Part shown: in pieces, positions 1,411-64,000 of the stretch
Layout of the letters: every line of letters begins with the position of its first letter
How positions within the stretch are numbered: the first letter of the stretch is position 1
Source of the DNA: Escherichia phage FEC19
Reading direction: 5' to 3' (one strand)
Sequence record: MH816966
Length of the DNA stretch: 64,000 bases
Translations under genes and position numbers: made by a program
Notes under the pieces: generated by a model
Told to the model about the DNA's origin: nothing
The model's input: the letters and a program-made list of their open reading frames with translations, nothing else
Databases searched by the model: none

Positions 1411-1438
1411 AATCAATTCTCCTTTGCTTGATGAACTA

Positions 1439-1466
1439 AGTATAATACAGGCAAATAAAAAGGCAA
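1439..1466 (-). promoter_or_regulatory. sigma70-like promoter for 1108-1410
   Basis: Minus sense TTGCCT-16-TATACT; -35 lies inside the upstream terminator stem. Confidence 0.4.
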
Positions 1467-1485
1467 GCATTTAGCTCACCTTTTT
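1457..1485 (-). terminator. rho-independent terminator (copy 1 of a duplicated cassette)
   Basis: Minus-strand RNA 5'-AAAAA GGUGAGC UAAAU GCUUGCC UUUUU-3'; the stem uses G-U wobbles that pair only in the minus-sense transcript. Confidence 0.5.
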
Positions 1486-1488
1486 GAA

Positions 1489-2129: not shown

Positions 2130-2130
2130 T

Positions 2131-2415
2131 TTACACCTCATGCAAGAAAGACAAAGATTTGATGCAGACTATTTCTTTTCCAGATACTTCCTTTATTGTA
2201 TCCAGCAGGCTTTCATACGCCTTTTTGGTGATCACCATTTCTTTCGTGGTAACGATTCCTGTTGCGCCTGAGCCGTCGTCTGCTTCCGCGTGATAATGAT
2301 AATAGTAACGCGTCGAATTTTCAGGATTAGCTTCACAAACGTTAACGTGATGTAAATATTCTTCAACAGGAAGTCGCATAGTTAACAAGCAATGTGGGCA
2401 GCGTTGCACCTTCAT
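2131..2415 (-). CDS. small zinc-finger-like protein, paralog B
   Basis: N-terminus QRCPHCLLTMRLPVEEYLHHVNVCEANPENS; tandem paralog of 1746-2129. Confidence 0.5.
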   Translation of the reverse strand: MKVQRCPHCLLTMRLPVEEYLHHVNVCEANPENSTRYYYHYHAEADDGSGATGIVTTKEMVITKKAYESLLDTIKEVSGKEIVCIKSLSFLHEV

Positions 2416-2648
2416 TTTGCATACTCCATAGCATATTGCTGCAGCTTAAACGCAGCCTTTTGTAATTGTTTGTGACGTTCAAATAACGTCTCACGCTTTT
2501 CAGCAGGGCAATCGGCGCGAAGCATTGTTATGGCAACGCTTGACATAGCATTCAATAAAAACTGAAAACGAGACACCATTCTCAGCTCATTACGCTTGTT
2601 GAAAGACAGCTTACCCAGCGCGGCATTCATAATTGCACCTCGACACAC
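2412..2648 (-). CDS. hypothetical protein (78 aa)
   Basis: ORF overlapping the upstream gene by 4 nt. Confidence 0.4.
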   Translation of the reverse strand: MCRGAIMNAALGKLSFNKRNELRMVSRFQFLLNAMSSVAITMLRADCPAEKRETLFERHKQLQKAAFKLQQYAMEYAK

Positions 2649-2944
2649 GATTCACTAGCCTTGAATCCCCAGCCTTCCAGACCGACTTCGCCGCAGTAAC
2701 GCGCCATTGCACGCTCATCCAAGAACCAACCGTGATATTGCTCTATGTACTTTGGTTTTTCTGAATAACAGTGAATGACTCCGTCGTCATCAATGGCCAC
2801 GTAACGCGTGCCAGGCGCGACTGGTACAACTACGTTTGGGTGGACGATTGGCCAAGGCTTGATGTGTACGGCTGTGTCTAACTTAACGTTTGGCACCCTT
2901 GAAAGGTCTTTGTAAGCGCCCTCGTCCATTCCTAAGTAAATCAT
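2627..2944 (-). CDS. hypothetical protein (105 aa)
   Basis: ATG at 2944 preceded by GAGGTGA; downstream of the duplicated promoter/terminator cassette. Confidence 0.5.
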   Translation of the reverse strand: MIYLGMDEGAYKDLSRVPNVKLDTAVHIKPWPIVHPNVVVPVAPGTRYVAIDDDGVIHCYSEKPKYIEQYHGWFLDERAMARYCGEVGLEGWGFKASESCVEVQL

Positions 2945-2976
2945 AATTCACCTCGCTTGTTAGTCTTGATGAAAAG

Positions 2977-3005
2977 AGTATAAGTATTGATAAAAGAAAA
3001 GGCAA
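2977..3005 (-). promoter_or_regulatory. sigma70-like promoter for 2627-2944
   Basis: Minus sense TTGCCT-17-TATACT; duplicate of the 1439-1466 arrangement. Confidence 0.4.
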
Positions 3006-3024
3006 GCATTTAGCTCACCTTTTT
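2996..3024 (-). terminator. rho-independent terminator (copy 2 of the duplicated cassette)
   Basis: Same 30-bp sequence AAAAGGCAAGCATTTAGCTCACCTTTTTGA as at 1459-1488. Confidence 0.5.
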
Positions 3025-3029
3025 GATAT

Positions 3030-3362
3030 TCATTTTACATAGTGGAGTAGGTCAATCTCTATCTCGTGCCTTGTCCTTGTTATCTTTGTATCACCCGTCC
3101 TGTGGGAGACTTGATGGAAGAAAGAGTCTTTGTGAGCGCATCGTTCAAACATCACGCTGGCAAATCTGCAGCCGCATATTGCATCAAGCTTTGCTCCGTT
3201 AGACAAAAGGTTGAATGTCAATACAGTGTTATCCATCCTTGCATTTTGCTTGATGCAGGACTTTAAGAAGGCGTAAGAATCGGCAAATGATTTGTGCCTT
3301 TTACAAATATCTTTAACCTTTTCACGCTCATGCGCGGCGAGTATCTGATCACGTGTCATCAC
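3030..3362 (-). CDS. hypothetical protein (110 aa)
   Basis: ORF in operon context, followed by the terminator at about 2996-3024. Confidence 0.45.
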   Translation of the reverse strand: MMTRDQILAAHEREKVKDICKRHKSFADSYAFLKSCIKQNARMDNTVLTFNLLSNGAKLDAICGCRFASVMFERCAHKDSFFHQVSHRTGDTKITRTRHEIEIDLLHYVK

Positions 3363-3598
3363 TGCACCTCTGTTATTCCGGTAATGCGAACGATTACGGT
3401 GTCATCTAAATTGAACTGCTGCCGCGCGACGCGCTTGATGTCGTCCTTAAGGTCCGCAATCAACTCCCTTGTTAACACTGTACGCTCTGAGACGTCATAT
3501 TGAACGTCAAAGGTATACTCGCCATAAAATACCGCGCCATTGGGAAGTTGTACGACATAGAATGCCATGTACATTGCATTGATATAATCTTCCATCAT
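3359..3598 (-). CDS. hypothetical protein (79 aa)
   Basis: Start refined to the internal ATG forming an ATGA overlap with the upstream stop. Confidence 0.4.
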   Translation of the reverse strand: MMEDYINAMYMAFYVVQLPNGAVFYGEYTFDVQYDVSERTVLTRELIADLKDDIKRVARQQFNLDDTVIVRITGITEVQ

Positions 3599-3942
3599 AC
3601 ATTCTCCACGGGTCGACGAATGAGTTTGCGTAATCCTTCGGGCCAGACCTTCTTGATGACGGCCTTTGCTGGGCTGGATGAAAGCTTCTTCAGCTTCAAT
3701 AGGACACATCCTTCATCATCGTTCGGTTGCACCTGGATAACGACTCGCGCTTGTCGGTCGATGACCATGACATCCCCAATGCGAATGTCTTTTACCAACA
3801 CGCCCATCTCCTTCGTGCCGGATACGCCATTGATGTGATCAAAACCTTTTCGCAGCGGTTTCATTATTTCTTCTCCTGCCATTTCTCTGACACGCTTCTT
3901 AATCTCTGCGCCAAACAACACTTCGTCTTTAACATGAGCCAT
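3595..3942 (-). CDS. hypothetical protein (115 aa)
   Basis: Start refined to MAHVKD to remove overlap with the upstream gene. Confidence 0.4.
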   Translation of the reverse strand: MAHVKDEVLFGAEIKKRVREMAGEEIMKPLRKGFDHINGVSGTKEMGVLVKDIRIGDVMVIDRQARVVIQVQPNDDEGCVLLKLKKLSSSPAKAVIKKVWPEGLRKLIRRPVENV

Positions 3943-9132: not shown

Positions 9133-10215
9133 CTATTTTATGCCACCTGCGCGACGATTTATCATATCAAGTTGATTCTCAATATAAGGCATGACTACTG
9201 CTTCAACAAAAGCGGTCCAGCCTTTCTTGCCTTCACCTTTCCGGTGACAGTCGTGAGCGCAACCGAAAACGAATTCATGTTCAGCGCCAGGGATTGGGCC
9301 TCGAAAATAAGCGCCGTATGGGTCGCCGTTGGTGTGCTCTTCACCCCAAGGACAGATGATGCGGCATTTACCTGACATGTTTTCAACCACATCGCCATCG
9401 GACCCTTCGCCCATCTTATTGCGCGCAAGGATTTGCTGGGCTATTTTATACCAAACAGCATCATATTTGTATTCGTCAACGTCGATTTGAATTTCACGCT
9501 TTTGCGGCATAACGACGTGGAAACCGAAGGCTTGGCAAATCTCTTCGATTGTGTAGCGCAAGGAATAGTCTGCATGGACAAGTCGGCAGCGGAACGGGTC
9601 GCCGTTCTCATCGACATATTTATAGGGGCCGTCGTGAGTCACACGCTTGTTGTTGATGCACCCAGGAACACGGCCCACGCGCGTCACGTCTTTAATCGTG
9701 TTGTCGCCGCCCTTCTTGAGTACCATGTTTACGAAAGACCCAAGGAATGCTTTGAACTGAATAAGATGGTCAATCGGTTCTTTAAAGAAGTACCACAGCT
9801 GATGGTTGTTCGGCGAAGTCTCGACGATGACGGTTGGTTTTAGGCGCTCGAAAAAGAATTCCAAATCTAAATCGCCCTTTGACCCTTTACCGTGCCCAAT
9901 GTCGTCGACCATCATCGCCATGCCATGACCAAAGGCCGATTCCGTGCGCCAGTATCGCATCTCGCCTGTCTTTGGGTTGGGAGACTTACGCATTGAACTT
10001 ATGCAGGCGTAACCGTTCTGATGTTGCATCAGCGGCTTGCCAAGCTTCCAAGGCTTAGGCCAGAAGCTGCTGTTAATCTTTTTGCCGCGCTCGTCAGTCT
10101 GCACTGTTGCTTCAGGCGCAAACACGGTCATGACGCGTTCATCTTCTGGAATGCCTCTTTGGAGTTCCGTCAAAAACTCTTCGATTATTTTTGCTTCTTC
10201 TCTTAAACTAGCCAT
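9133..10215 (-). CDS. putative primase-polymerase (prim-pol/AEP-like) with C-terminal zinc-binding region
   Basis: VDDIGHG (DxD-like), SPNNHQLWYFF and RVPGCINNK segments resemble prim-pol motifs; C-terminal CPWGEEH ... GCAHDCH cysteine/histidine cluster. Confidence 0.5.
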   Translation of the reverse strand: MASLREEAKIIEEFLTELQRGIPEDERVMTVFAPEATVQTDERGKKINSSFWPKPWKLGKPLMQHQNGYACISSMRKSPNPKTGEMRYWRTESAFGHGMAMMVDDIGHGKGSKGDLDLEFFFERLKPTVIVETSPNNHQLWYFFKEPIDHLIQFKAFLGSFVNMVLKKGGDNTIKDVTRVGRVPGCINNKRVTHDGPYKYVDENGDPFRCRLVHADYSLRYTIEEICQAFGFHVVMPQKREIQIDVDEYKYDAVWYKIAQQILARNKMGEGSDGDVVENMSGKCRIICPWGEEHTNGDPYGAYFRGPIPGAEHEFVFGCAHDCHRKGEGKKGWTAFVEAVVMPYIENQLDMINRRAGGIK

Positions 10216-10244
10216 CTTTCTTTCCTTCGGTGATCAATACCTGC

Positions 10245-10272
10245 AGTATAATATTGAGTGATACAAAGTCAA
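10245..10272 (-). promoter_or_regulatory. sigma70-like promoter for the prim-pol gene
   Basis: Minus sense TTGACT-16-TATACT in the divergent intergenic region. Confidence 0.45.
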
Positions 10273-14538: not shown

Positions 14539-15369
14539 ATGAAAGTTGAATTAATTCGATACACCCAAGATGCACTTGACCTTTTGCTGGAAACAAAGAA
14601 CACGCGCATGACTGGTAAGCCTGTCTCTGAGATGACGGAATCAGAGAAGCAAGAGCATTGGCGCTACATGCTTGATACAATCAAGTCGCCTTTTGACTTT
14701 GTGGACTATATCTTTGACATCACCGATGTTTCAAAGAATATGACCCATCAGATGGTGCGCACACGCACAGGCGCATATCAAGAACGCACCAGCCGCGCTC
14801 AGGAGTCGTCTGCATTTGATGCGATTCGTCCGAAGGCATTCTCACACCAAAATCCAGAGTTGATTGATCAATGTGAAGCATTTGGGACTGATGAAGAGCA
14901 CCAGTCTTTACTTCAAAAGCAATACTTAGCAGAGAAGTGGGATGATGCGATGGCGACTATCGATGTTTTGTATCAAGAGCTTCGCGCGGCTGGCGCAGAG
15001 ATTCAAGATGCACGTGCCGTGTTGCCTTCTAATATGCAAACGCATATCATGGCAAAGTTCAACTTGCGCACGCTGCAACAGATGGCGTCAAACCGCTTGT
15101 GCACGCGCACTCAAGGCGAGTATCAAGAAGTATTCCGCGCGATGGTTGCTGAAGTCCTCAAGGTGCACCCGTGGGCAAATCCATTATTACAGCCGCAATG
15201 CATCGGTATGGGTAAATGCGCGTTTCCTCGTCATGGCAAAGCCCATTGCCCTTGGTATCGTGATTGGATGGATACCACGGCACAGCAAGAAGAGTTGCGC
15301 ATCCAGTTTTGGAGTGCGATGCCAATCACCAACAATCCAGTTGCTAAAGATGGAGTATCAAAAGGATGA
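14539..15369 (+). CDS. flavin-dependent thymidylate synthase (ThyX)-like protein, noncanonical motif
   Basis: VRTRTGAYQERTS aligns to the ThyX RHR-x7-S region and ARAVLPSNMQTHIMAKFNLRTLQQMASNR to the ThyX helix [29 protein letters not shown] (recalled from memory). Confidence 0.55.
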   Translation: MKVELIRYTQDALDLLLETKNTRMTGKPVSEMTESEKQEHWRYMLDTIKSPFDFVDYIFDITDVSKNMTHQMVRTRTGAYQERTSRAQESSAFDAIRPKAFSHQNPELIDQCEAFGTDEEHQSLLQKQYLAEKWDDAMATIDVLYQELRAAGAEIQDARAVLPSNMQTHIMAKFNLRTLQQMASNRLCTRTQGEYQEVFRAMVAEVLKVHPWANPLLQPQCIGMGKCAFPRHGKAHCPWYRDWMDTTAQQEELRIQFWSAMPITNNPVAKDGVSKG

Positions 15370-16238
15370 GCATTAAAAACAGCGAAATCTTAAACGTATT
15401 CGACCTTGACGGAACGCTGTTTGATGACCGTTGGCGCTTAGACCGCATCAAGGTGGCAGGTCCGTTGTCAGACTATGATGACTATCACAGCGGTATTGGT
15501 TATGATCAGTTCTATCCTCACATTGCATCAGCAGTAGAGTCGGCATCTCTTCGCGGTGAGGCGGTTGAATATTGGACTGCAAGGCCAGAAAAATACAGAC
15601 AAGTGACTTTTGAACGTCTGGATAATGTTTTTCCTTTTGATGAATTTACAATCAAGATGAGAGACTATGGCGACAAACGTCCATCAACTATTATGAAATC
15701 TGCATGGCTATCGCACGCATTGCGGCACGGCGATTATCGAATCATCAATGTATTCGACGACCGACAAGACGTACTCGCGCGGATGCAAGATGAAGCATTG
15801 TATTATAATTCCGTTGCTCAAAATAAAATCGCTTTTACATTTAATCTTTGCAAGGCAGGTGAAGTGGTGCAACAATTAGCAATTGATCCAAGCGCAACAG
15901 GGCAAGAAGAGACTAAGGCTGTGGAAGTTGAACAATCTCCGGCAACTGCCGCCGATATTCTTGATGCAATGGCAGCAACCTTCCGTGAGCGCAACGCTGT
16001 CTATGGTGATAACGCTGTGATGGTAGGTCAGGTTATGCAAGTGCTTTTCCCTAATGGCGTGACGTTGAAAACGCCGGAAGACTACCACATGTGGCATCTG
16101 TTCGAGCTTAAGATTGTCAAGCTTACACGCTTCGCAATCAGCGGCCTGAAGCACGAAGACTCTATACACGATGATGGTGTTTACAGCGCCATGTGTGAAC
16201 GTCTTGTTAACGCCCATAATATTAATTTCAATAAATAG
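15366..16238 (+). CDS. HAD-superfamily phosphatase fused to a C-terminal domain of unknown function
   Basis: HAD motif I FDLDGTLF plus downstream T, K and DD motifs; C-terminal about 120 aa with RERNAVYGDNAVMVGQVMQVLFPNG of unknown affiliation. Confidence 0.6.
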   Translation: MSIKNSEILNVFDLDGTLFDDRWRLDRIKVAGPLSDYDDYHSGIGYDQFYPHIASAVESASLRGEAVEYWTARPEKYRQVTFERLDNVFPFDEFTIKMRDYGDKRPSTIMKSAWLSHALRHGDYRIINVFDDRQDVLARMQDEALYYNSVAQNKIAFTFNLCKAGEVVQQLAIDPSATGQEETKAVEVEQSPATAADILDAMAATFRERNAVYGDNAVMVGQVMQVLFPNGVTLKTPEDYHMWHLFELKIVKLTRFAISGLKHEDSIHDDGVYSAMCERLVNAHNINFNK

Positions 16239-16268
16239 TTTACTTGTGCGTTTCGATGAGTTATATTT
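16239..16268 (+). promoter_or_regulatory. sigma70-like promoter with -10 inside a palindrome loop
   Basis: TTTACT-18-TATATT; the -10 lies between 12-bp arms CGTTTCGATGAG and CTCATCGAAACG. Confidence 0.45.
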
Positions 16269-16303
16269 ATCTCATCGAAACGAAGTCCAAAAAGGATAAA
16301 TAA

Positions 16304-16987
16304 ATGAAAAAAGTAATTGTTGTAACTGGCTGCAATTCCGGTCTTGGTAAATCCATTTTTGACACCCTTGGCGCTTACGGTCATGAAGTTGTCGGTATTG
16401 ATTTGGAGAACGGCTATGACATCCGTAACGCGAAACAGATGAAAGAGCTTCTCTCTCAATACGACGTAGAAGGCTTGATCAACTGCGCTGGCGTCAACTC
16501 CAACAACTGGTTCGAAGATGTTAACTACGAAGAGTTCAATCGCGTTATGCACACCAACGCCTTCTCTTTCGTCAACACGACTCAGGCCGCGCTGAAAAGT
16601 CTTATCGACAACAAAGGTTTTGTGATCAATATCGTTTCTAACGCTGCGCATATTCCTATGACGTCCAGCTTGTGTTATAATGCTTCCAAGGCTGCTGCGC
16701 TCATGATTAGCAAGCAGATGGCTCACGAGCTTACGCCTAAATACGGGATCACGGTATTCTCTATTAGTCCTAACAAGCTACGTGGTACTGGCATGTCCAA
16801 ACAAATTGAAGATGCTGTTTGCGCGACTCGCGGCTGGACTCCTGAGTATGCTGCTGAATACCAGAAAAAGGCGTTGATGAATGGATTGGAGACTGAGCCG
16901 CAAGTAATTGCTGACTTCATTCGCCATATCTTAATTACGGGCGCATGGCGCTTTATGTCTGGTACTGATATTCCATTTGGGAAATAA
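16304..16987 (+). CDS. short-chain dehydrogenase/reductase (SDR)
   Basis: Cofactor motif VTGCNSGLGKS (TGxxxGxG) and catalytic YNASKAA (YxxxK). Confidence 0.8.
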   Translation: MKKVIVVTGCNSGLGKSIFDTLGAYGHEVVGIDLENGYDIRNAKQMKELLSQYDVEGLINCAGVNSNNWFEDVNYEEFNRVMHTNAFSFVNTTQAALKSLIDNKGFVINIVSNAAHIPMTSSLCYNASKAAALMISKQMAHELTPKYGITVFSISPNKLRGTGMSKQIEDAVCATRGWTPEYAAEYQKKALMNGLETEPQVIADFIRHILITGAWRFMSGTDIPFGK

Positions 16988-27246: not shown

Positions 27247-27274
27247 TTTACTTTCAAAACCTTCGGCCTATACT
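27247..27274 (+). promoter_or_regulatory. sigma70-like promoter
   Basis: TTTACT-16-TATACT upstream of 27306. Confidence 0.5.
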
Positions 27275-49656: not shown

Positions 49657-49744
49657 CCACCCTCAAATAAGTATTGTGTATTATATCTAATGAAAAAAAC
49701 TTAGGCAAACAATAATTATGGTTTGAATATGTATAACAACCGAT

Positions 49745-50030
49745 ATAGCCGCGCCTTAATTAGTGTGATACGGATGATACGGATAAAATGAGGCGTATTT
49801 TTATCCGTATCGGTGTATAAGCCGCGCTATCACTGGTGTGCTACGGATGATACGGATGATACGGATACTTTTCATATATAAGAGTTTATAAAAAAAATAA
49901 AATTAAATTAGATATATAATTTTAAATTAATTTATTTGAATTCCTATAAAGTATCGCGGCAACGCGTATCATCCGTATCATCCGTAAGATTCTTTTGAAA
50001 ACAACTACTTACTTGATACGGATGATACGT
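49745..50030. repeat. iteron-like 9-bp repeat array flanking an AT-rich core
   Basis: GATACGGAT units, direct at 49767-49784, 49843-49868 and 50015-50029 and inverted at 49803-49811 and 49967-49987, around an 80-bp core of over 80% A+T (49869-49950). Confidence 0.7.
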
Positions 50031-50073
50031 CATTATACGCGTAAAATCCTGCGGCAATCCATTGCCAGGCGAT

Positions 50074-58070: not shown

Positions 58071-60407
58071 ATGCCAAGGCTAATATTCAAAAACAACTTT
58101 GAGGTCGCGCTTGCTCAGCCAACGACGACTTCAGACACCACAATTACAATCCGCTCAGGGTCGGGCTTTCCGACCTTGGCCGCAAACGAGCGTGTAGTGG
58201 CGACAATCGTCGACGCTGCAACAGGCCTCCAATTCGAAATCATCACAGTAACAGCCGTCGTTGGTGATGTCCTGACCGTTCAGCGTGCACAGGAAGGGAC
58301 TGCAGCGCGTGCATGGGCGGCTGGCGACATGCTTTCCATTCGAACAACTGCTGCGACTTTGACGGGTACTGTCCGAAACTTTGGCGTAATTCCTAATGGA
58401 GTAAACCTTAACGCGCTGAACGGAAGCTGGTTCGGGCAGTATTACCAACTGGCTGATTCTGGGGCATCAATATCACTCAACTATCCTGTCGCACAAGCGG
58501 GAATACTTGAAGTTTTACAAACGGGAGTTTCAACGAACGGATGTGTTCAGCGATACACACCTTACAACACTAACACTGTATACCAGAGGCTGTATAATGC
58601 CATCACATCAACTTGGTCTGATTGGGTTCAAGTTTATAATACGCAAAGCGTTATACCAGTCGCAAATGGCGGTACAGGACAAACGACCATCCAAGGGATG
58701 AAGTCTGCTTTTGGATTCGGAACGGTCGCTGATCAAAACATTGTTCCCACTTCAATGGGCGGTACGGGATCAGCAGACAATGCGCAGGCATGGCTTAACA
58801 TTCGTCCACAAGGGTCGACTCCGCTGGCTGGCGACCCTGTGAATGATTATGATGCCGCAACTAAGCGTTGGGTTGAGAACTTAGTAAATACTGGCACCGT
58901 TGGCCCAAGCATGAACGGTGTTATGAACTATGGCGTCGGTGACTTCCACTTACGCGACAGTCGTGCTTATATTCAACCATATGAAGTCGTTGCTGATGGG
59001 CAGTTGTTAAACCGCGCTGACTGGCCTGAACTTTGGGCGTATGCGCAAATGCTTTCTCCTATTGCTGATGCCGACTGGCTTGCTGACCCAGCGAAACGCG
59101 GCAAGTATTCACTTGGTAATGGCACAACGACATTCCGTGTACCAGACAGAAATGGTGTCCAGACCGGTTCCATACAAGCCTTATTTGGCAGGGGTGACGG
59201 CGGTAATTCATCGGCCAACGGAGTCGTTTCTGAGTCAGGTGCACCAAATATAACTTACTCCGCGCCGCACACAATGGTCACGTTGGCTTCTGCGCCAAGT
59301 CAGGTGGCGACTAATGGCGCTTTTCAGTCGATCACTTCTGGGGACTCTCCAGCAGCAGCAGGTTCTGGTTCAAGATTCATACAAACAAACTTTGACGCTT
59401 CTCGATCAAGCCCTGTATACGGAAGATCAGCAGCGGAAATCGTTCCGCGTAACTTTGTTGGCGTTTGGGTGATTCGTGCATCGGGTGGCTTTGTTGCCGC
59501 GAATACGACTTGGAGCGTTATTAATGGTGACGCAGTAAAACCTGCAACCGGAACGCTTGTCAGAGGCGGCAGTGTAAAATCTGAATATAAAATTGGCACC
59601 AACATTGCGTATCAAGCATTCTTGCAAGCATACGGTAAGATTGATGGATTAACGTCTGAACAAGGTGCTGTGATATCTAATGGGGTGCAAGAATGGAAGT
59701 TTGCGCAAGATGGCACATTTTATTTCCCTAACTCCATAAATCAAATTGGCACGGAAAGGACAGACGGGGCGCTGAATGTTAATGCATATCTCAGACCAAA
59801 AGACCTTGTTGCGCAACCGTTAAACTCAGTAGGCGTTGCAGCGTATGAAAGCAACGGCATGAGGATGATAAACTTCAACCAGTCAACACCTGGGTATGTA
59901 TCATATTTTTCAGGGGATTGGTATGCTGGCAGCTATACATTCGGAGGCGTTCGAGGCACTGGAACTGATTTGATGCACGCGCAAATATCCATAAACAATG
60001 GGCAAGGCGCTGCAGCAGATTTCAAATTCATGCCTGATGGTACTGCTACTGCAGGGAACTGGGTCAGCACGTCTGATGAGAGGGTCAAGACAAATATTCA
60101 AAGGATCTCCGACCCGTTAGGAAAGATGAGATTGATCAAGGGTGTGACTTGGGAGCGCCTTGATAAGTCAGAGAAACCGAATGGCATCGGATTTATAGCT
60201 CAAGATGTAGAAGGTGTATTTCCTGACGCAGTAAAAACTTTGAAATATTCAAACACGGAACTCAAGGATGGGACTGTTGTCGAAGATATCAAGTCAGTTG
60301 ACACTTACGGCGTTGCAGCGGCACTGCACCACGAGGCTATTCTCGCATTGATGGATCAAATAGATGAACTCAAGGCAGAGATAGCCGCGCTGAAAGCAGC
60401 GAAATAA
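58071..60407 (+). CDS. tail fibre/tailspike with C-terminal S74 intramolecular chaperone domain
   Basis: C-terminal SDERVKTNIQRISDPLGKMRLIKGVTWERL and coiled-coil tail, typical of self-cleaving chaperone domains of fibres and endosialidases. Confidence 0.8.
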   Translation: MPRLIFKNNFEVALAQPTTTSDTTITIRSGSGFPTLAANERVVATIVDAATGLQFEIITVTAVVGDVLTVQRAQEGTAARAWAAGDMLSIRTTAATLTGTVRNFGVIPNGVNLNALNGSWFGQYYQLADSGASISLNYPVAQAGILEVLQTGVSTNGCVQRYTPYNTNTVYQRLYNAITSTWSDWVQVYNTQSVIPVANGGTGQTTIQGMKSAFGFGTVADQNIVPTSMGGTGSADNAQAWLNIRPQGSTPLAGDPVNDYDAATKRWVENLVNTGTVGPSMNGVMNYGVGDFHLRDSRAYIQPYEVVADGQLLNRADWPELWAYAQMLSPIADADWLADPAKRGKYSLGNGTTTFRVPDRNGVQTGSIQALFGRGDGGNSSANGVVSESGAPNITYSAPHTMVTLASAPSQVATNGAFQSITSGDSPAAAGSGSRFIQTNFDASRSSPVYGRSAAEIVPRNFVGVWVIRASGGFVAANTTWSVINGDAVKPATGTLVRGGSVKSEYKIGTNIAYQAFLQAYGKIDGLTSEQGAVISNGVQEWKFAQDGTFYFPNSINQIGTERTDGALNVNAYLRPKDLVAQPLNSVGVAAYESNGMRMINFNQSTPGYVSYFSGDWYAGSYTFGGVRGTGTDLMHAQISINNGQGAAADFKFMPDGTATAGNWVSTSDERVKTNIQRISDPLGKMRLIKGVTWERLDKSEKPNGIGFIAQDVEGVFPDAVKTLKYSNTELKDGTVVEDIKSVDTYGVAAALHHEAILALMDQIDELKAEIAALKAAK

Positions 60408-60414
60408 TTCACTC

Positions 60415-60440
60415 AAGGCGCTGAAAAGCGCCTTTACTTT
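60415..60440 (+). terminator. rho-independent terminator after the fibre gene
   Basis: AAGGCGCT-GAAA-AGCGCCTT followed by TACTTTAT. Confidence 0.6.
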
Positions 60441-60460
60441 ATGCGCTATTAAGTTATACT
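60433..60460 (+). promoter_or_regulatory. sigma70-like promoter
   Basis: TTTACT-16-TATACT, overlapping the tail of the preceding terminator. Confidence 0.45.
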
Positions 60461-60488
60461 CATTATACGTTAACAAGTGAGGTGTATT

Positions 60489-60770
60489 GTGAAATTTGAA
60501 GATATTGATAAGGCTCATAAAGCAAAAGCGTTGCCTAAATATGTGATTTGCGGAATTGATCCTGAAGACAACCGCTTGGTTTTCTTGAAACAAGTTGATA
60601 GCAATGATTCTGGCGACGCAGTTAATTGGTGCATCCCTTTGTTTGAGACAGCAGAAGAAGCCCAGAAAGTATTGTCAGAAAGCAATCTGCCTAAACACTA
60701 CAACGTGATTTCACAAGATGACATGGCAAAATTAGTGTTTAATTTTATGGATATTGGGAGAAGGTTCTAA
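60489..60770 (+). CDS. hypothetical protein (93 aa)
   Basis: GTG start after GAGGTG; downstream of a TTTACT-16-TATACT promoter. Confidence 0.4.
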   Translation: MKFEDIDKAHKAKALPKYVICGIDPEDNRLVFLKQVDSNDSGDAVNWCIPLFETAEEAQKVLSESNLPKHYNVISQDDMAKLVFNFMDIGRRF

Positions 60771-60979
60771 TGGAAATTAAATTATTGTCCGATTTCGTAA
60801 AAAGTATTGAAGCCAAAGGCATGACAATCAAGGCTAAGAAAGGCGGCATTGTCTGCATTGACAAACAACAAAGCGATCAAGGCATATCACTTGATGACAT
60901 CAAAACTATGCAAAAGCTTAATAAGAAAGGCGACTTGCACAAGTTCTTGAAGGATATTGGAGCGGTGGACAATGGATAA
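60770..60979 (+). CDS. hypothetical protein (69 aa)
   Basis: Coupled ORF. Confidence 0.4.
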   Translation: MEIKLLSDFVKSIEAKGMTIKAKKGGIVCIDKQQSDQGISLDDIKTMQKLNKKGDLHKFLKDIGAVDNG

Positions 60980-61073
60980 AGAGTCACGACGCTTTGCATT
61001 TTGGGGCACGGTATGCATTGCCGCGCTGTTTGGTATCGCTTATGCAATTGCTTACGCTGCAGCGGCATAAATC

Positions 61074-61469
61074 ATGATCATCGATATTGAAAAGGCTCTC
61101 AAGCGCGAATTGACGCCAGGTGCGACTCCTGGCGAAGAAGCCTACTACCGACCGAAGGCGCAACGCACCAATGAGATTCCGGTCGTGAAGCGGACAGTGA
61201 ATAAGAACGGTCAGCGGTCGCGACCGCGCTCTATCCGGTCCGGTGAAAGGCTGAAAACGATTCGCCAGTGTCTACAACGACTCGAAATCATGGGTTGTCG
61301 CGCTTATATCGACCCTGATGGAAAGGTCATGGTGAGAATTGGCAATAGTACACAACTACAAGACGGATTGCCTTGCGGCGAATCCAGACCCATAGCAAAG
61401 ACCGACCGTGTGGCTACTGGCCGCGAGGTTGAGGAAAGTTGGTTGGGTGCTTTCTTATTAAAATATTGA
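61074..61469 (+). CDS. hypothetical basic protein (131 aa)
   Basis: ORF in the plus-strand late-right block. Confidence 0.4.
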   Translation: MIIDIEKALKRELTPGATPGEEAYYRPKAQRTNEIPVVKRTVNKNGQRSRPRSIRSGERLKTIRQCLQRLEIMGCRAYIDPDGKVMVRIGNSTQLQDGLPCGESRPIAKTDRVATGREVEESWLGAFLLKY

Positions 61470-61476
61470 GGTCGAC

Positions 61477-61671
61477 ATGAATAAAAATGAATCAGTAGCA
61501 TTCTTGCAATGGCTTGAAGGTGTGGTGGAGTATTACGCTCCAAAAGACCGTTTCATCTTTCAAGGTAAAAGCTTCAAGCGCAAAGGCCAAGCCGAGAAGG
61601 CAGCGCGCAAGTACTGGAAGGAAGTTTATTCAGAGTTCTTTCAGCACATCGGCACAGCTGGTATCGATTGA
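61477..61671 (+). CDS. hypothetical protein (64 aa)
   Basis: ORF in operon context. Confidence 0.4.
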   Translation: MNKNESVAFLQWLEGVVEYYAPKDRFIFQGKSFKRKGQAEKAARKYWKEVYSEFFQHIGTAGID

Positions 61672-61766
61672 TGAATCCAATCGTTACAATTAATAAACCG
61701 ATTTGAATGCCGCGCTATGCGGCTTTATTATAATTTAAGTTAATCACCCTCATGAAAGGTAATGAT

Positions 61767-62147
61767 ATGTCAAATAAGAATGATTCTATTCACAATACAT
61801 ATACTAAAGGCAGCGGAATGGCCTTTGGTGGCAGTATCAAAATTGACGCTCCATCTTGCGATTCTGATGGATTGGAAGTCGGCAACCGAGACTTAACATG
61901 GGTTTTACGTCGCCAATCCGATTTAGAAGAGAAGCTGGAAAATATTGAGCGTTCTCTTGAAAGTCTTCGCGACCAGCTTTTTGGTTGTCCTGAAGATGAT
62001 TCAAAACCTGGACCATATGCATCCAATCATGGTTTGATTGATAATATGCTTGCTATTACCGCTCGATCAATTGGTAAAACTGTGTCCATTGAATCATTGA
62101 TCAGTCAGATTGCGGATGGCTTTGGTGATGCCCATAAGAGTGAATAG
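61767..62147 (+). CDS. hypothetical protein (126 aa)
   Basis: Start refined to ATG at 61767 after AAAGGT; followed by a terminator. Confidence 0.4.
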   Translation: MSNKNDSIHNTYTKGSGMAFGGSIKIDAPSCDSDGLEVGNRDLTWVLRRQSDLEEKLENIERSLESLRDQLFGCPEDDSKPGPYASNHGLIDNMLAITARSIGKTVSIESLISQIADGFGDAHKSE

Positions 62148-62176
62148 TGGGTGTTGCTGATTTAACCGTGAATCGT

Positions 62177-62202
62177 GGGTCGCTGTGGCGGCCCTTTCTT
62201 TT
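62177..62202 (+). terminator. rho-independent terminator ending the plus-strand right block
   Basis: GGGTCGC-TGTG-GCGGCCC (one G-U pair) followed by TTTCTTTT. Confidence 0.6.
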
Positions 62203-62216
62203 GCCTGCCGCGCAGG

Positions 62217-62679
62217 AGTGTACTGCAAATTTACTGTGGGCACAAAATAGTACGGTACTGTCTAGGACTTTTTCTTTGAAAAGTTAGTGGACCAAATGTG
62301 TCGTATTTTGATTAGTGTACTGCAAATTTCATCAAGTACCAAAACGCACCAAAAGACCCATGCCCTAAAAACCACACGAACGCAATAATCAATCGCCGTT
62401 ACAGTTTCCAGCGTTACAATTAGAAAGCGAATGATTCGGCGCATAATAATATGAAGCATAATAGTTCGAAAGCGAATGATTGCGCGCAGAATAATATCGG
62501 TTGGGATTATTCTAGATGTCGGTAATTTCGCATGCGTACTATTTTCGGGCGAAGGGTCGGCATATTTCTCGTTTTAGTTCGGAACGAAGGGAAAGTTTTG
62601 CGCCTTTATAAAACAACGACTTGCGCGACCCGCCTTAACGTTCCGATATAGGTGTCTATATAAAACAACGACTTACGCG
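62217..62679. repeat. direct-repeat-rich noncoding region
   Basis: 16-bp AGTGTACTGCAAATTT at 62217 and 62314; about 30-bp GAAAGCGAATGATT...ATAATAT at 62424 and 62468; 22-bp TATAAAACAACGACTT(G/A)CGCGA at 62606 and 62658. Confidence 0.6.
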
Positions 62680-62802
62680 ATGTTCTCCATTTAACGTAAT
62701 ACCTGTTATGCGAACTAAGGCGCATCTCGATGAAGATTATGCGACGAAGAAGGGAAGGATAAAGGAGTTTTCGCGGAGAAGCGCATCGAGATAGGGGCGA
62801 AG

Positions 62803-62824
62803 AAAAGCCGCGACTAAGCGCGGC
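62803..62824 (-). terminator. rho-independent terminator ending the CpG-rich minus-strand gene set
   Basis: GCCGCG-ACTAAG-CGCGGC with a U-run following on the minus transcript. Confidence 0.55.
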
Positions 62825-62850
62825 CTATTAGTAACGGTGGGTGATTATAA

Positions 62851-63060
62851 TTAAAGGAATAATCCGGCGCGTTTAATTTGCCCAAGGACGTTATCGCGAC
62901 GGCGACGCATAACCGCGTATTTAACTTCTTCTTCGTATCCCCAGCCGCCGATGGATAACATCGAGTTCATATTATCGCATAATTCCTTAAGCTCGCGAAA
63001 CATATCGATTACGGCGGAGCGATGGGCGCGCGCGTTAAGAGAGTTATTCATATTAATCAT
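62851..63060 (-). CDS. hypothetical protein (69 aa), CpG-rich island
   Basis: ORF with codon composition distinct from the rest of the window; followed by a minus-strand terminator. Confidence 0.4.
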   Translation of the reverse strand: MINMNNSLNARAHRSAVIDMFRELKELCDNMNSMLSIGGWGYEEEVKYAVMRRRRDNVLGQIKRAGLFL

Positions 63061-63070
63061 TTTCTTCTCC

Positions 63071-63361
63071 TTAAAGGCTTACGATTTTAAAGAAAGTTAC
63101 TTCGCCGCCGAGTTGCGGTACAGCGATATATTCGCCGCCGATTTCGGTAATCGTATAAACGAAGCCGTTAATCGTTACGCGGTAGGATACGATGTCCTCG
63201 TCGCGATACTTGTAAAGGTCGAGGAAGTTGATCGGCTCATAAATAGCCTCGATAGTCGCGTCGACGTTAAAAAGATAGACGTGTTTAAGTTTTTCACCAA
63301 ATACATTGGAGTTTTCGGAAGTCTCGACGCGAGCGTCGCGGATAGCGGCTAAAGTAATCAT
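63071..63361 (-). CDS. hypothetical protein (96 aa), CpG-rich island
   Basis: ATG preceded by CTAGGAG RBS and the conserved promoter/leader cassette. Confidence 0.45.
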   Translation of the reverse strand: MITLAAIRDARVETSENSNVFGEKLKHVYLFNVDATIEAIYEPINFLDLYKYRDEDIVSYRVTINGFVYTITEIGGEYIAVPQLGGEVTFFKIVSL

Positions 63362-63429
63362 AATATTCTCCTAGTTAGTCGGGAGGGTAGCGACCTATTC
63401 GCTACCTCATCCCCTCTCGATATAAAACA

Positions 63430-63457
63430 TTATAGTCTTAGTGTACGAATAAGTAAA
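63430..63457 (-). promoter_or_regulatory. promoter of conserved right-end cassette (copy 1)
   Basis: Minus sense TTTACT-16-TATAAT with conserved flanks, upstream of 63071-63361. Confidence 0.5.
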
Positions 63458-63468
63458 GCACTTTTTCG

Positions 63469-63771
63469 TTATTTTGCGATAAAATATTTATAAGCCTTAT
63501 CGCCTTCTACGTCGATATACTCGACGATAATTAATTCTTCGCCGCGTGGCGTAACCGTCTCGATAAGGGTAACGGCTTCGTCGTCGGTCTTCGCGAAGCG
63601 GATTGCGCTACGTTCGGCATACTTAATATCGTCGAAGGATAATCCGACGAAGGCGACGGCGCGCGCTTTAATAATGCTCGTTTCGAGTTCCGCGTTAACG
63701 GCGGCGATAAGAGAGCGAACGGTTAAGCGGTCTTCGTCGTAAGTAAGGATAGAAGAGATTAAAGTGGTCAT
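63469..63771 (-). CDS. hypothetical protein (100 aa), CpG-rich island
   Basis: Start refined to ATG at 63771 after GGGAG; its own TTTACT-16-TATACT promoter. Confidence 0.45.
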   Translation of the reverse strand: MTTLISSILTYDEDRLTVRSLIAAVNAELETSIIKARAVAFVGLSFDDIKYAERSAIRFAKTDDEAVTLIETVTPRGEELIIVEYIDVEGDKAYKYFIAK

Positions 63772-63827
63772 AATAAAACTCCCGGTGCTAGTAGAAGGAA
63801 GGGCCATCGCCCGTCTCGATATGAACA

Positions 63828-63855
63828 AGTATACGCGAGTGTACGAAGAAGTAAA
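63828..63855 (-). promoter_or_regulatory. promoter of conserved right-end cassette (copy 3)
   Basis: Minus sense TTTACT-16-TATACT followed by the GTTCATATCGAGACGGG leader, upstream of 63469-63771. Confidence 0.45.
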
Positions 63856-63899
63856 GAAAAAAGATAAAATAATTTATCGCATTTTTATCGAAAAAGTGC

Positions 63900-63927
63900 T
63901 TTACTTTTTTCTACACTATATTATAAT
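63900..63927 (+). promoter_or_regulatory. promoter of conserved right-end cassette (copy 2)
   Basis: TTTACT-16-TATAAT driving a plus-strand gene whose ATG is at 63998 (truncated by the window end). Confidence 0.5.
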
Positions 63928-64000
63928 GTACTCATATCGGGACGGGATGAGTTAACGAATAGGTCGTTAACGCCTCTCCCCAACTAGGAGTTTATTATGG

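What the first reader, a model, noticed from the sequence alone, without database searches (positions are those of the whole stretch)
62851..64000. CpG-rich island of small genes, each with its own copy of a roughly 115-bp promoter/leader cassette
The three minus-strand genes and the plus-strand gene starting at 63998 use a visibly different codon and dinucleotide composition (frequent CG, codons such as ACG, GCG, CGC, GTC) from the rest of the window. Three of them are each preceded by a copy of the same cassette: TTTACT-16-TATA(A/C)T, a conserved leader and an AGGAG/GGGAG RBS; two copies are about 80% identical over 115 bp and diverge from each other. This suggests a recently acquired or separately regulated accessory module of individually expressed small proteins, possibly host takeover or anti-defence.
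Basis: seen in the sequence. Interest (0 to 1): 0.65.

Follow-up and report, generated by a model that had tools for sequence, protein, structure and literature searches.

The report
Genome-end early-gene island lacking CA/TG
The flagged region is the early-gene end of a phage's 3.5-kb terminal repeat, and its DNA almost completely avoids the dinucleotide step CA/TG on both strands, a conserved and apparently undescribed feature that fits a published puzzle about which restriction enzymes can stop these phages.

Summary
The window is a Wifcevirus (PB1-like E. coli myophage). From about 62,400 to the window end, CA/TG falls to o/e 0.4 (1.18 elsewhere). CG doubles, TA rises, and G+C is unchanged. 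The bias is strand-symmetric and affects all codon positions and non-coding DNA. It starts about 60 bp inside the 3.5-3.7 kb direct terminal repeat, so the island abuts one physical genome end.

Three copies of a promoter/leader cassette drive g96, g100 and the 208-aa gene. Each has TTTACT-16/17-TATAMT, an ATATCGRGASGGG leader start, a covarying 5' hairpin and a Shine-Dalgarno site. The extended cassette occurs nowhere else in the window.

The island is not a recent acquisition. All 27 Wifcevirus records carry it. Kylevirus, Myosmarvirus and two metagenomic relatives have equivalent islands with diverged genes. In one relative, 1.1 kb has no CA/TG except three start codons and one intergenic TCTGCA.

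Best reading: a terminal-repeat early module whose DNA is kept free of short targets before protective proteins are made. In phage Bas99 the repeat has no EcoRI, EcoRV, EcoAI or CACAG sites but six AGACC sites. This matches its published resistance to every tested system except EcoP1. What actually reads CA/TG is unknown.

The parts
62217..62329 (.). Two exact copies of AGTGTACTGCAAATTT (62217-62232 and 62314-62329), just outside the terminal-repeat boundary. This is a candidate end-defining or terminase signal.
   Evidence: Direct repeat D6. The related motif TTAGTGTAC...AAGTACCAA sits at the same place in Pantoea phage PA1 and Serratia phage WR01.
62352..64000 (.). First 1.65 kb of the 3.5-3.7 kb direct terminal repeat (DTR). 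Position 62352 is its inner boundary. In the other DTR copy the same sequence is a physical end of the virion DNA.
   Evidence: In Ro157lw, record positions 1-3533 equal 68647-72179 exactly. Mansfield has a PhageTerm DTR of 1-3673. WFC and WFH have repeats of about 3.7 kb.
62412..64000 (.). CA/TG-depleted island, rich in CG and TA. It continues for about 0.1-0.7 kb beyond the window.
   Evidence: Change point 62412, log-likelihood ratio 101. 76 CA/TG observed against 232 expected.
62352..62806 (.). Non-coding terminal region with direct repeats (62410-62452/62455-62497 and 62604-62628/62656-62680) and GAAT(G/C)ATT motifs.
   Evidence: The same kind of repeat array lies between the small genes and the boundary in PA1, L026 and L028.
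62807..62824 (-). Intrinsic-terminator hairpin GCCGCG-CTTAGT-CGCGGC followed by a T-run. It ends the g96-g69 transcript.
   Evidence: Sequence. A terminator is annotated at the same place in Mansfield and WFC.
62851..63060 (-). g69, 69 aa. It has no cassette of its own and lies 10 nt downstream of g96. It is present in only some Wifceviruses.
   Evidence: ORF. phrog_10377, labelled 'transcriptional regulator', E = 7.5e-36. Missing from the records that cover only 86% of the query.
63071..63361 (-). g96, 96 aa, acidic (net charge -6), with one Gln, one His and no Cys or Trp.
   Evidence: Its family has only 3 clusters among 1.84 billion representatives. It is homologous to Mansfield g005 (31% identity), which also matches Myosmarvirus gB at 31%.
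63362..63473 (-). Cassette A: -35 TTTACT 63452-63457, -10 TATAAT 63429-63434, leader start 63411-63423, hairpin GGTAGCGA-ATAGG-TCGCTACC 63386-63406, SD AGGAG 63368-63372.
63469..63771 (-). g100, 100 aa (ATG at 63771), acidic (net charge -6), with no Gln, His, Cys or Trp and no internal Met.
   Evidence: The word-indexed protein search found it only in ~68-kb Wifcevirus-type contigs. A g100-like gene follows the g96 homolog in L026 (N-terminal resemblance seen by eye; not tested).
63772..63871 (-). Cassette B: -35 TTTACT 63850-63855, -10 TATACT 63828-63833, leader start 63810-63822, short hairpin 63801-63812, SD GGGAG 63779-63783.
63885..63997 (+). Cassette C, back-to-back with B: -35 63900-63905, -10 TATAAT 63922-63927, leader start 63934-63946, hairpin GTTAACGA-ATAGG-TCGTTAAC 63951-63971, SD AGGAG 63986-63990.
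63998..64000 (+). Start codon of the 208-aa gene (g208), which is cut by the window end.
   Evidence: Ro157lw gene 00004 lies at the equivalent place. phrog_4730. Homologs are found across PB1-like phages.

Best explanation
Identity (confidence about 0.85). The region is the early-gene module of the phage's direct terminal repeat. The repeat sits at both ends of the virion DNA, so its sequence is the first 3.5 kb to enter a cell whichever end leads. The island half of the repeat lies directly at one physical end. Three near-consensus sigma-70 promoters (TTTACT-16/17-TATAAT or TATACT) are read by the unmodified host RNA polymerase. Each transcript begins with a conserved 5' stem-loop, inferred to stabilise the mRNA or bind a protein, followed by a strong Shine-Dalgarno site. 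The products are small, mostly acidic proteins (g96, g100, g69) and the conserved g208. These are inferred to act in host takeover and to protect the rest of the genome.

Composition (confidence about 0.35-0.4). The CA/TG ban is a duplex-level constraint that has been actively maintained. It is most likely selection to strip the first-entering DNA of short targets of DNA-directed host defences, because this DNA is exposed before any protective protein exists. CA/TG steps removed by transitions become CG or TA. That accounts for the CpG and TpA excess at constant G+C.

Shown here: the anatomy, the composition, the position in the repeat, conservation across genera, and the match between restriction sites in the repeat and published phenotypes.

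Inferred: early timing, protein functions, and the identity of whatever reads CA/TG.
For: Position. The change point at 62,412 lies 60 bp inside the DTR boundary at 62,352. In Serratia phage MyoSmar (DTR 1-3559) the island occupies about 150-1850, at the physical left end.

Promoters. Three copies score 9-10 of 12 against consensus, and the extended cassette is unique to the island.

Hairpin. The apex CGA-ATAGG-TCG is invariant. Three different distal stems pair correctly (GTTAA/TTAAC, GGTAG/CTACC, GTCGGG/CCCGGC), and there are two G.T wobble variants.

The bias acts on duplex DNA. CA and TG are equally depleted on the coding strand even where all island genes share one strand (12-14 CA and 17-22 TG, against about 100 and 86 expected). 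The depletion covers all codon positions and non-coding DNA.

The bias is maintained, not a relic. The same signature (CA o/e 0.39, 0.21, 0.37) occurs in three genera whose island DNA is not detectably similar in a blastn search and whose proteins are 31-46% identical. In L026, 1,128 bp carry only three ATG start codons plus one TCTGCA, against a background density of 0.144 per nt.

Target avoidance is stronger in the island. GATC is avoided genome-wide (232 observed, 555 expected) but more strongly in the islands (6 observed, 41.6 expected).

Link to experiment. BASEL Wifceviruses resist EcoKI, EcoCFT_I, EcoRI, EcoRV and EcoCFT_II although they carry sites, and are very sensitive only to EcoP1_I (PMC11990801). 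I deduced EcoCFT_II = CACAG from matching site counts: 92 in Bas99 and 51 in Bas01. The Bas99 DTR has 0 CACAG (4.9 expected, P = 0.007), 0 EcoRI, 0 EcoRV, 0 EcoAI, 1 EcoKI, and 6 AGACC in both orientations. Bas98, Bas100 and Ro157lw show the same pattern.

Precedent. Sites in the first-injected region decide Type I sensitivity in Murciavirus (PMC12455610).
Against: There are no expression or DNA-entry data for this phage group. The early timing, and any pause in DNA entry like that of T5, are assumed.

Within Wifcevirus, low-frequency substitutions create CA/TG at the neutral rate (transitions: 0.37 observed vs 0.37 expected, and 0.44 vs 0.44). Extant sequences carry slightly more CA/TG than their consensus (28-37 vs 28). 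Selection is therefore not detectable on the short time scale and may be weak or relaxed in this genus.

The restriction correlation rests on six systems, and only CACAG is individually significant. The absences of EcoRI, EcoRV and EcoAI sites are within chance.

Banning one dinucleotide removes only about half of all possible recognition motifs. No known defence reads a bare CA/TG step.

The T5 first-step-transfer region shows no such bias.

The island proteins match no known anti-restriction or other family. Their AlphaFold models are poor.
Confidence: 0.5

Rival explanations
1. The island is a recently acquired foreign segment that still carries its donor's composition.
For: The dinucleotide signature is strongly atypical. 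Within Wifcevirus the island gains CA/TG at about the neutral rate, as a segment drifting towards the host genome's composition would. Gene content varies slightly between isolates: g69, g005 and a 50-aa gene in AV128.
Against: The island is present in 27 of 27 Wifcevirus records. Kylevirus, Myosmarvirus and metagenomic relatives have syntenic, homologous islands whose proteins have diverged to 31-46% identity, yet the bias is the same or stronger. g208 inside the repeat is a core gene of PB1-like phages. No donor, mobility gene or tRNA was found. G+C equals that of the rest of the genome.
Confidence: 0.04
2. A region-specific mutational or repair bias, rather than selection, removes CA/TG. 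It could arise from a process that acts only on the terminal DNA, such as end processing, repeat duplication, or exposure to a deaminase or repair activity.
For: The bias is strand-symmetric and ignores coding and non-coding boundaries. It is sharply bounded near a DNA end. No purifying selection was detected in polymorphisms. The per-opportunity rate of CA/TG loss is about 1.2-1.4 times that of gain, based on small counts.
Against: Two different transitions, both confined to CA/TG context, would have to be favoured together (CA to CG and CA to TA). The other half of the same terminal repeat has normal composition. A near-absolute absence that spares only start codons and promoter motifs looks like selection acting against function-neutral sites. 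The measured gain and loss rates would give an equilibrium far above the observed level.
Confidence: 0.15
3. Self-immunity. An early phage function damages DNA at CA/TG-containing sites, and the first-entering DNA must coexist with it. The function could be a host-DNA-degrading nuclease, or a protein that turns a host enzyme such as gyrase into a DNA breaker.
For: This would explain an almost absolute ban at the level of a bare dinucleotide, confined to the early segment and to one clade. T5 offers a precedent for host DNA destruction directed from the terminal repeat before the rest of the genome enters (annotation). Very fast development has been reported for these phages (PMC11990801). From memory only: gyrase cleavage consensus centres on a TG step.
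Against: No nuclease-like protein was found in the repeat. The rest of the phage genome has normal CA/TG content and would need separate protection. T5 itself shows no such bias.
Confidence: 0.15
4. A replication or recombination role. The terminal segment is kept free of primase start sites (E. coli DnaG uses CTG), so the end stays single-stranded after fork run-off and can invade the other repeat copy to form concatemers.
For: CTG/CAG is the most depleted trinucleotide (ratio 0.11). The island lies at a DNA end inside a repeat that must recombine or be duplicated.
Against: Only one strand would need to lack sites, but the ban is symmetric. All NCAN contexts are depleted, not only CTG. CTG is also the easiest to remove synonymously, so its rank is uninformative. 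The phage has its own primase genes, of unknown specificity.
Confidence: 0.08
5. An expression-level constraint. Banning TG on both strands removes every NTG start codon, every TGA, TTGACA-type -35 hexamers and extended -10 TG motifs. Only the intended promoters and start codons then work in a region that must be expressed at once.
For: In L026 nearly the only TG left are the three true start codons. Even the real promoters use TTTACT rather than TTGACA.
Against: Spurious starts are tolerated everywhere else in this genome and in other phages. The cost of losing five amino acids seems out of proportion. TA enrichment creates many -10-like hexamers (9 promoter-like hits against 5.2 expected).
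Confidence: 0.08

Closest known systems
T5 pre-early (first-step-transfer) region in the long terminal repeat
   Same: Early genes lie inside a long direct terminal repeat in divergently transcribed blocks driven by strong host-type promoters. A repeat-containing non-coding stretch sits at the inner end of the repeat (T5 'injection stop signal' 9140-10149). From memory: T5 resists EcoRI because its first-entering DNA has no site while a pre-early function protects the rest.
   Different: There is no sequence homology. The repeat is 3.5 kb rather than 10 kb. The T5 region has ordinary dinucleotide composition (CA/TG fraction 0.35-0.51). Two-step DNA transfer has not been shown for this phage group.
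SPO1 host-takeover module and the terminal-repeat genes of Twort-like phages (from memory)
   Same: Many very small genes sit in the terminal redundancy. Each has its own strong sigma-A/sigma-70 promoter and ribosome-binding site, and they are expressed first.
   Different: Different hosts and gene families. No compositional island has been reported for them, and none was tested here.
Restriction-site avoidance in the first-injected region (T7/T3 with Ocr; Murciavirus, PMC12455610)
   Same: Sensitivity to a restriction system depends on whether its motif lies in the leading DNA, not on the number of sites in the genome. The Bas99 repeat fits this for six systems.
   Different: Known cases concern loss of particular 5-13 bp motifs. 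Here a whole dinucleotide step is banned on both strands, strongly enough to reshape amino-acid content.
Leading-region anti-defence islands of conjugative plasmids (cited as Samuel et al. 2024)
   Same: The first DNA to enter the recipient carries promptly expressed small anti-defence genes.
   Different: Plasmid leading regions enter as single strands and use single-strand promoters. No dinucleotide ban is known for them.
Classical horizontally acquired genomic island, or phage 'moron'
   Same: An atypical dinucleotide signature, and small genes that each have their own promoter and terminator.
   Different: G+C is not atypical. The island is universally present and ancient in the clade, with no mobility genes. 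Its signature persists through sequence divergence instead of fading.

Membership tests
Terminal-repeat early / host-takeover module (T5 pre-early, SPO1 type) | Lies inside a long direct terminal repeat of a virulent phage | tested here: met
   The DTR boundary maps to 62352. Ro157lw has a 3533-bp exact repeat, Mansfield a 3673-bp PhageTerm repeat, and WFC/WFH about 3.7 kb.
Terminal-repeat early / host-takeover module (T5 pre-early, SPO1 type) | Small genes with individual strong host-type promoters and ribosome-binding sites | tested here: met
   Three cassettes score 9-10 of 12 against sigma-70 consensus and carry AGGAG or GGGAG. This is sequence evidence only; promoter activity was not measured.
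Terminal-repeat early / host-takeover module (T5 pre-early, SPO1 type) | Transcribed first after infection, with products that shut off the host or counter defence | not testable with these tools
   No transcriptome or functional data were found. The proteins have no informative family hits.
Terminal-repeat early / host-takeover module (T5 pre-early, SPO1 type) | Two-step DNA transfer with a pause after the repeat (T5 only) | not testable with these tools
   The only evidence is the analogous position of a non-coding repeat region at the inner end of the repeat.
Leading-region restriction-site avoidance | The motif is absent from the first-entering DNA but present elsewhere in the genome | tested here: met
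   In Bas99, CACAG is 0 in the DTR against 92 in the genome (4.9 expected, P = 0.007). EcoRI is 0 of 19, EcoRV 0 of 4 and EcoAI 0 of 3, none individually significant.
Leading-region restriction-site avoidance | The restriction phenotype follows the sites in the leading DNA | tested here: met
   The published efficiency-of-plating pattern is resistance to five systems and sensitivity only to EcoP1_I. This matches 6 AGACC sites in both orientations in the DTR. The evidence is correlative.
Leading-region restriction-site avoidance | Adding or removing a site in the leading DNA switches the phenotype | not testable with these tools
   This needs engineered phages.
Horizontally acquired compositional island | Patchy presence among close relatives | tested here: not met
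   Present in 27 of 27 Wifcevirus records at 90-96% identity. It is the only large island in the complete Bas99 genome.
Horizontally acquired compositional island | Signature inherited from a donor and fading with time | tested here: not met
   The same signature occurs in three genera with 31-46% protein identity, and it is stronger in the more distant ones. No donor was found.
Known RNA family for the leader | Match to an Rfam covariance model | tested here: not met
   The only hit is a chance-level one to NsiR4 over the terminator (E = 0.51, 18.6 bits against a gathering score of 40).
DNA hypermodification with an unmodified early region | The phage encodes base-modification enzymes | tested here: not met
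   The thymidylate synthase is ThyX, and the kinase-like gene matches a PNKP phosphatase domain. No methyltransferase or modification genes appear in the Bas99 annotation. The BASEL authors report no known genome protection. The DNA itself was not examined.

The most novel reading that the evidence does not exclude
The leading ~2 kb of these phages is a purpose-built 'stealth' DNA segment. Selection has removed an entire dinucleotide step (CA/TG) from both strands, so strictly that the encoded proteins use a 15-letter amino-acid alphabet. The cause would be an unrecognised activity in Enterobacterales, or one made by the phage itself, that attacks or marks duplex DNA at CA/TG-containing short sites during the first minute of infection. 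Early proteins made from this segment would then protect the rest of the genome from restriction in general.
Probability: 0.35. Interest if true: 0.9.

Novelty: new variant of a known kind. Interest (0 to 1): 0.8.

Why it matters
Early genes in terminal repeats and site avoidance in leading DNA are both known. A regional, strand-symmetric and near-absolute ban of one dinucleotide is not, as far as I could find (literature). The ban is conserved across genera and strong enough to exclude Gln, His, Cys, Trp and internal Met from whole proteins. It implies a strong selective agent of unknown identity acting on the first DNA to enter enterobacterial cells.

The finding gives a concrete, testable explanation for the unexplained restriction profile of Wifceviruses in the BASEL collection. 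It nominates g96, g100, g69 and g208 as candidate broad anti-restriction or takeover proteins. It identifies a compact promoter-plus-leader expression cassette. It also offers a simple genome-scan statistic, the CA/TG share of pyrimidine-purine steps, for locating leading ends in other phages. This is relevant for phage therapy and engineering, where the PB1-like relatives are widely used.

Tried and rejected
1. Codon-usage explanation. Rejected, because the bias is equal on both strands, at all codon positions and in non-coding DNA.

2. Foreign donor. The word-indexed searches found g100 and g96 only in Wifcevirus-type contigs, and an exhaustive profile search for g96 (1.84 billion representatives) added only two small relatives, both in islands of related phages.

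3. Purifying selection in polymorphism data. Not detected within Wifcevirus, where gains of CA/TG occur at the neutral expectation. I report this as evidence against strong current selection in this genus.

4. DNA modification at CA/TG. No modification genes were found. Resistance to EcoRI (GAATTC, which contains no CA/TG) would not be explained either.

5. A general property of terminal-repeat early regions. T5 shows no island. No island was seen within about 8 kb of the g208 homolog in Pseudomonas E217 and tabernarius, Xanthomonas FoX6 or Aeromonas Gekk3-15. Those genomes were only partly sampled.

6. Protein function. Pfam, PHROGs, PADLOC and PDB sequence searches were uninformative. AlphaFold models had mean pLDDT of 65.6 and 53.6, too low for fold searches, which were not run.

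7. Rfam and tRNA searches found nothing.

8. A scan of IMG/VR for the cassette core gave only Wifcevirus genomes plus chance matches without islands.

9. Single-sequence folding energies of the leaders are not clearly better than shuffles (z = -2.0, 0.06 and -0.8). Support for the hairpin comes from covariation, not from energy.
Full report
WHAT THE WINDOW IS. The last 1.7 kb and the 4.3 kb before it match 27 and 56 phage records respectively. The best matches are Wifcevirus myophages of E. coli and Shigella: Ro157lw at 96%, then vB_Eco4M-7, ECML-117, Mansfield, WFC/WFH and Bas98-101. [quoted passage not shown] The DTR is 3,673 bp in Mansfield by PhageTerm and about 3.7 kb in WFC and WFH. In Ro157lw it is an exact 3,533-bp duplication at both ends of the record. 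Mapped onto the window, the inner DTR boundary is at 62,352. The finding therefore lies wholly inside the DTR, and the window stops 1.65 kb into it.

CHECK OF THE COMPOSITION. CpG o/e jumps from 1.10 +/- 0.13 to 2.0-2.5. A symmetrised dinucleotide table shows what really changes. CA/TG drops from 1.18 to 0.41, CG rises from 1.10 to 2.16, and TA rises from 0.66 to 1.22. Everything else, including G+C, stays put. The three pyrimidine-purine steps are simply redistributed. The CA/TG share of these steps is 0.58 +/- 0.03 (minimum 0.52) in 1.65-kb windows across the genome, and 0.19 in the island. The maximum-likelihood change point is 62,412, with support 62,375-62,537 and a log-likelihood ratio of 101. 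The island holds 76 CA/TG where 232 are expected (P = 1e-36).

The depletion is the same for CA and for TG on the coding strand. It occurs at codon positions 1-2, 2-3 and 3-1, and it holds in the 455-bp non-coding stretch. It also reaches the proteins: Gln is 0.5-0.8% against 4.0% elsewhere, and His, Cys and Trp are nearly absent. This is a constraint on duplex DNA, not a codon-usage dialect. In Ro157lw the strong island is about 1.8 kb long. The 208-aa gene is intermediate, and the last ~900 bp of the DTR (a gene that Mansfield's annotators call a small terminase subunit) is ordinary. In the complete Bas99 genome it is the only large region of this kind, at 60,201-62,500, ending at the DTR boundary. 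Two ~0.5-kb intergenic patches also score low for other reasons.

CHECK OF THE CASSETTE. Three copies exist, upstream of g96, upstream of g100 and upstream of the gene that starts at 63,998. Copies A and C are 80% identical over 115-116 nt. Copy B shares the promoter and the first 13 nt of the leader, then differs. Each copy has:
- TTTACT, a 16- or 17-nt spacer, and TATAAT or TATACT;
- a conserved spacer TTCGTACACT;
- a conserved ATATCG(A/G)GA(C/G)GGG at the likely transcript start;
- a hairpin;
- AGGAG or GGGAG, followed by ATG.

The 19-nt core occurs three times in 64 kb and nowhere else. The leader motif behaves the same way. The bare TTTAC-N17-19-TAYAMT pattern is found at 27,247 and 60,433 as well, five times in total against 0.27 expected. 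The promoter class belongs to the phage, and the extended cassette belongs to the island.

THE LEADER HAIRPIN. Across 14 Wifcevirus sequences and two Myosmarvirus genomes the apex CGA-ATAGG-TCG is invariant, while the distal stem takes three mutually compensated forms: GTTAA/TTAAC, GGTAG/CTACC and GTCGGG/CCCGGC. There are also two G.T wobble variants. That favours an RNA structure at the 5' end of the transcripts. Folding energies alone are not exceptional and Rfam has no match. I infer a role in mRNA stabilisation or protein binding. This was not tested.

NOT A RECENT ACQUISITION. All 27 Wifcevirus records carry the island at 90-96% identity, always with three cassettes. Only g69 is missing from most of them. 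Some relatives add a g96 paralogue (Mansfield g005) or a 50-aa gene. g208 is a core gene of PB1-like phages, with 354 records, mostly Pseudomonas.

Following g208 into the nearest other genera gave the key result. Pantoea phage PA1 (Kylevirus) and the Serratia phages WR01 and MyoSmar (Myosmarvirus) each have their own 1.8-2 kb island, with CA o/e of 0.37 and 0.21, CG about 2.0 and TA 1.1-1.3. PA1 repeats the window's architecture piece by piece: a boundary motif TTAGTGTAC...AAGTACCAA, a non-coding array of AATCATTCG-type repeats, small genes on the minus strand, back-to-back promoters, and then g208. It has four cassette copies. WR01 has the same promoter and leader start, a g208 paralogue, a g96 homolog with the ATAGG hairpin, and a third acidic protein.

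A profile search of 1.84 billion representative proteins found only two further members of the g96 family. Both sit in islands of uncultured relatives. In one of them, L026, the 1,128 bp from the promoter through two and a half genes contain no CA/TG at all except the three ATG start codons and one intergenic TCTGCA. The flanking density is 0.144 per nt. These proteins contain no Gln, His, Cys or Trp and no internal Met.

The island DNA of the different genera is not detectably similar in a blastn search, and the proteins are 31-46% identical. The signature therefore cannot be a relic and has been maintained. I saw no island within about 8 kb of the g208 homolog in Pseudomonas E217 and tabernarius, Xanthomonas FoX6 or Aeromonas Gekk3-15, nor in the T5 first-step-transfer region. 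Those genomes were only partly sampled.

POSITION AT A DNA END. In MyoSmar the PhageTerm DTR is 1-3559 and the island occupies about 150-1850. It starts at the physical left end, and its genes are transcribed inward. In Wifcevirus the island abuts the inner DTR boundary. In the second DTR copy that same boundary is the physical end of the molecule. In both genera the island is therefore the terminal ~1.8 kb at one end. Because the DTR is present at both ends, DTR sequence is the first 3.5 kb to enter the cell whichever end leads.

LINK TO PUBLISHED PHENOTYPES. [quoted passage not shown] They were very sensitive only to EcoP1_I, although they carry as many EcoCFT_II sites (PMC11990801, site counts). 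I reproduced the table's counts for Bas99: EcoKI 5, EcoAI-type 3, EcoRI 38, EcoRV 8 and AGACC 89. I identified the EcoCFT_II motif as CACAG, because among the 5-mers that count 92 in Bas99 it is the only one that also counts 51 in Bas01.

Within the Bas99 DTR the counts are as follows:
- CACAG: 0 (4.9 expected, P = 0.007);
- EcoRI, EcoRV and EcoAI-type: 0 each;
- EcoKI: 1;
- AGACC: 6, in both orientations.

Bas98, Bas100 and Ro157lw behave alike. Bas98 has a single CACAG, which cannot be cut by a type III enzyme that needs two inverted sites. The sites in the repeat, not in the genome, track the phenotype. The same has been shown experimentally for the first-injected region of Murciavirus (PMC12455610) and, from memory, for EcoRI and T5. 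This supports a model in which the repeat enters first and produces something that protects the remainder. It is a correlation over six systems.

WHY CA/TG? This is the open part. Evidence for selection on target content:
- the ban persists through deep divergence;
- it spares only functional CA/TG, namely start codons and the promoter's TACACT;
- GATC, the 4-mer most avoided genome-wide (o/e 0.42), is avoided three times more strongly in the islands (o/e 0.14);
- the ban removes CACAG, the GTGC and GTCA halves of EcoKI and EcoAI, CCWGG and CAGCAG at a stroke.

Evidence against:
- one dinucleotide removes only about half of all conceivable motifs;
- no known system reads a bare CA/TG step;
- within Wifcevirus, new substitutions create CA/TG at exactly the neutral rate, so each isolate has a few more CA/TG than the consensus. 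Selection there is too weak to see, or relaxed.

The most depleted contexts are CAR/YTG (TCAA, TCAG, GCAG, CCAG), and the least depleted is CAT/ATG. This order may only reflect how easily each can be replaced.

I therefore hold four rivals open: self-immunity to an early DNA-damaging function of the phage, a terminal-region mutational bias, a primase-free zone for end recombination, and suppression of spurious promoters and start codons. I found no support for a base modification at CA/TG. The thymidylate synthase is ThyX, the 'kinase' matches a PNKP phosphatase domain, and there are no methyltransferases.

THE PROTEINS. g96, g100 and their relatives are 88-125 aa and strongly acidic, with net charge -6 to -20. 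That is typical of phage DNA mimics and other early inhibitors, but it is only a compositional hint. PHROGs labels g69 a 'transcriptional regulator'. Pfam, PADLOC and PDB sequence searches gave nothing. AlphaFold models were of low confidence, so no fold search was made.

VERDICT. The 'recent accessory island' interpretation is replaced by 'conserved leading-end early module of the terminal repeat'. The compositional feature, a maintained and nearly absolute ban of CA/TG on both strands, appears to be undescribed (literature) and calls for an agent not yet identified.

Noticed in passing
window 49,700-50,060: An intergenic region between divergent structural-gene blocks holds about ten copies of GATACGGAT / ATCCGTATC in both orientations. 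They flank an ~80-bp stretch of almost pure A+T (49,880-49,945). It looks like iterons plus an unwinding element, so it could be a replication origin or a regulator-binding array. It also scores low for CA/TG because of the repeats.
   Followed up: no
window 27,247-27,274 (+) and 60,433-60,460 (+): Two further TTTACT-N16-TATACT promoters lie outside the island, upstream of a signal-peptide protein gene (27,306) and a 97-aa gene after the tail fibre (60,477). They lack the conserved spacer and leader of the island cassettes.
   Followed up: partly
window 62,217-62,232 and 62,314-62,329; L018 ~5,080; L017 ~10,230-10,270: AGTGTAC-containing repeats lie just outside the terminal-repeat boundary and are conserved in Kylevirus and Myosmarvirus. 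The same heptamer, as its reverse complement, forms the conserved spacer of the island promoters (CGTACACT). It could be a terminase or end-definition signal, or the binding site of a shared regulator.
   Followed up: partly
window 62,410-62,497 and 62,604-62,680; L028 3,400-3,600; L018 5,180-5,350: The non-coding end region carries GAAT(G/C)ATT-type motifs at 8.7 per kb, against 0.53 per kb in the whole window. In the relative L028 they form an array with 15-bp spacing. The function is unknown; packaging, an entry pause or protein binding are possibilities.
   Followed up: partly
whole window: Short palindromes are avoided genome-wide: GATC 232 observed vs 555 expected, CCGG 148 vs 277, CTAG 42 vs 102, GGCC 306 vs 404 (second-order Markov expectation). 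This is typical of restriction or Dam avoidance.
   Followed up: partly
Bas99 (L025+L044) and Bas01 (L045): The recognition site of the type III system EcoCFT_II, which is not given in the text of the BASEL papers held here, can be deduced as CACAG. Its counts match the published site table in two unrelated phages (92 and 51).
   Followed up: yes
L026 6,043-7,168 (metagenomic relative, Logan SRR23924999): Two complete genes and most of a third are encoded without a single CA or TG apart from the start codons. Their proteins are built from 15 amino acids, with no Gln, His, Cys or Trp and no internal Met.
   Followed up: yes
L001 7,471-7,755; L016 5,400-5,552; window 62,851-63,060: The small-gene content of the island varies among Wifceviruses. 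A g96 paralogue (g005) lies between cassette C and g208 in most isolates but not in this window. AV128 has an extra 50-aa gene. g69 is in only about a quarter of the records.
   Followed up: partly
window 63,458-63,470 (-): This window and Ro157lw carry one EcoKI site (AAC-N6-GTGC) inside cassette A, formed by the GTGC just upstream of the -35 hexamer. Bas98 and Bas100 lack it.
   Followed up: no
window 14,539-16,987: A ThyX-type thymidylate synthase, a protein with a PNKP-phosphatase domain and a short-chain dehydrogenase lie side by side. I checked whether this could be a thymidine-hypermodification cluster and found no support.
   Followed up: yes
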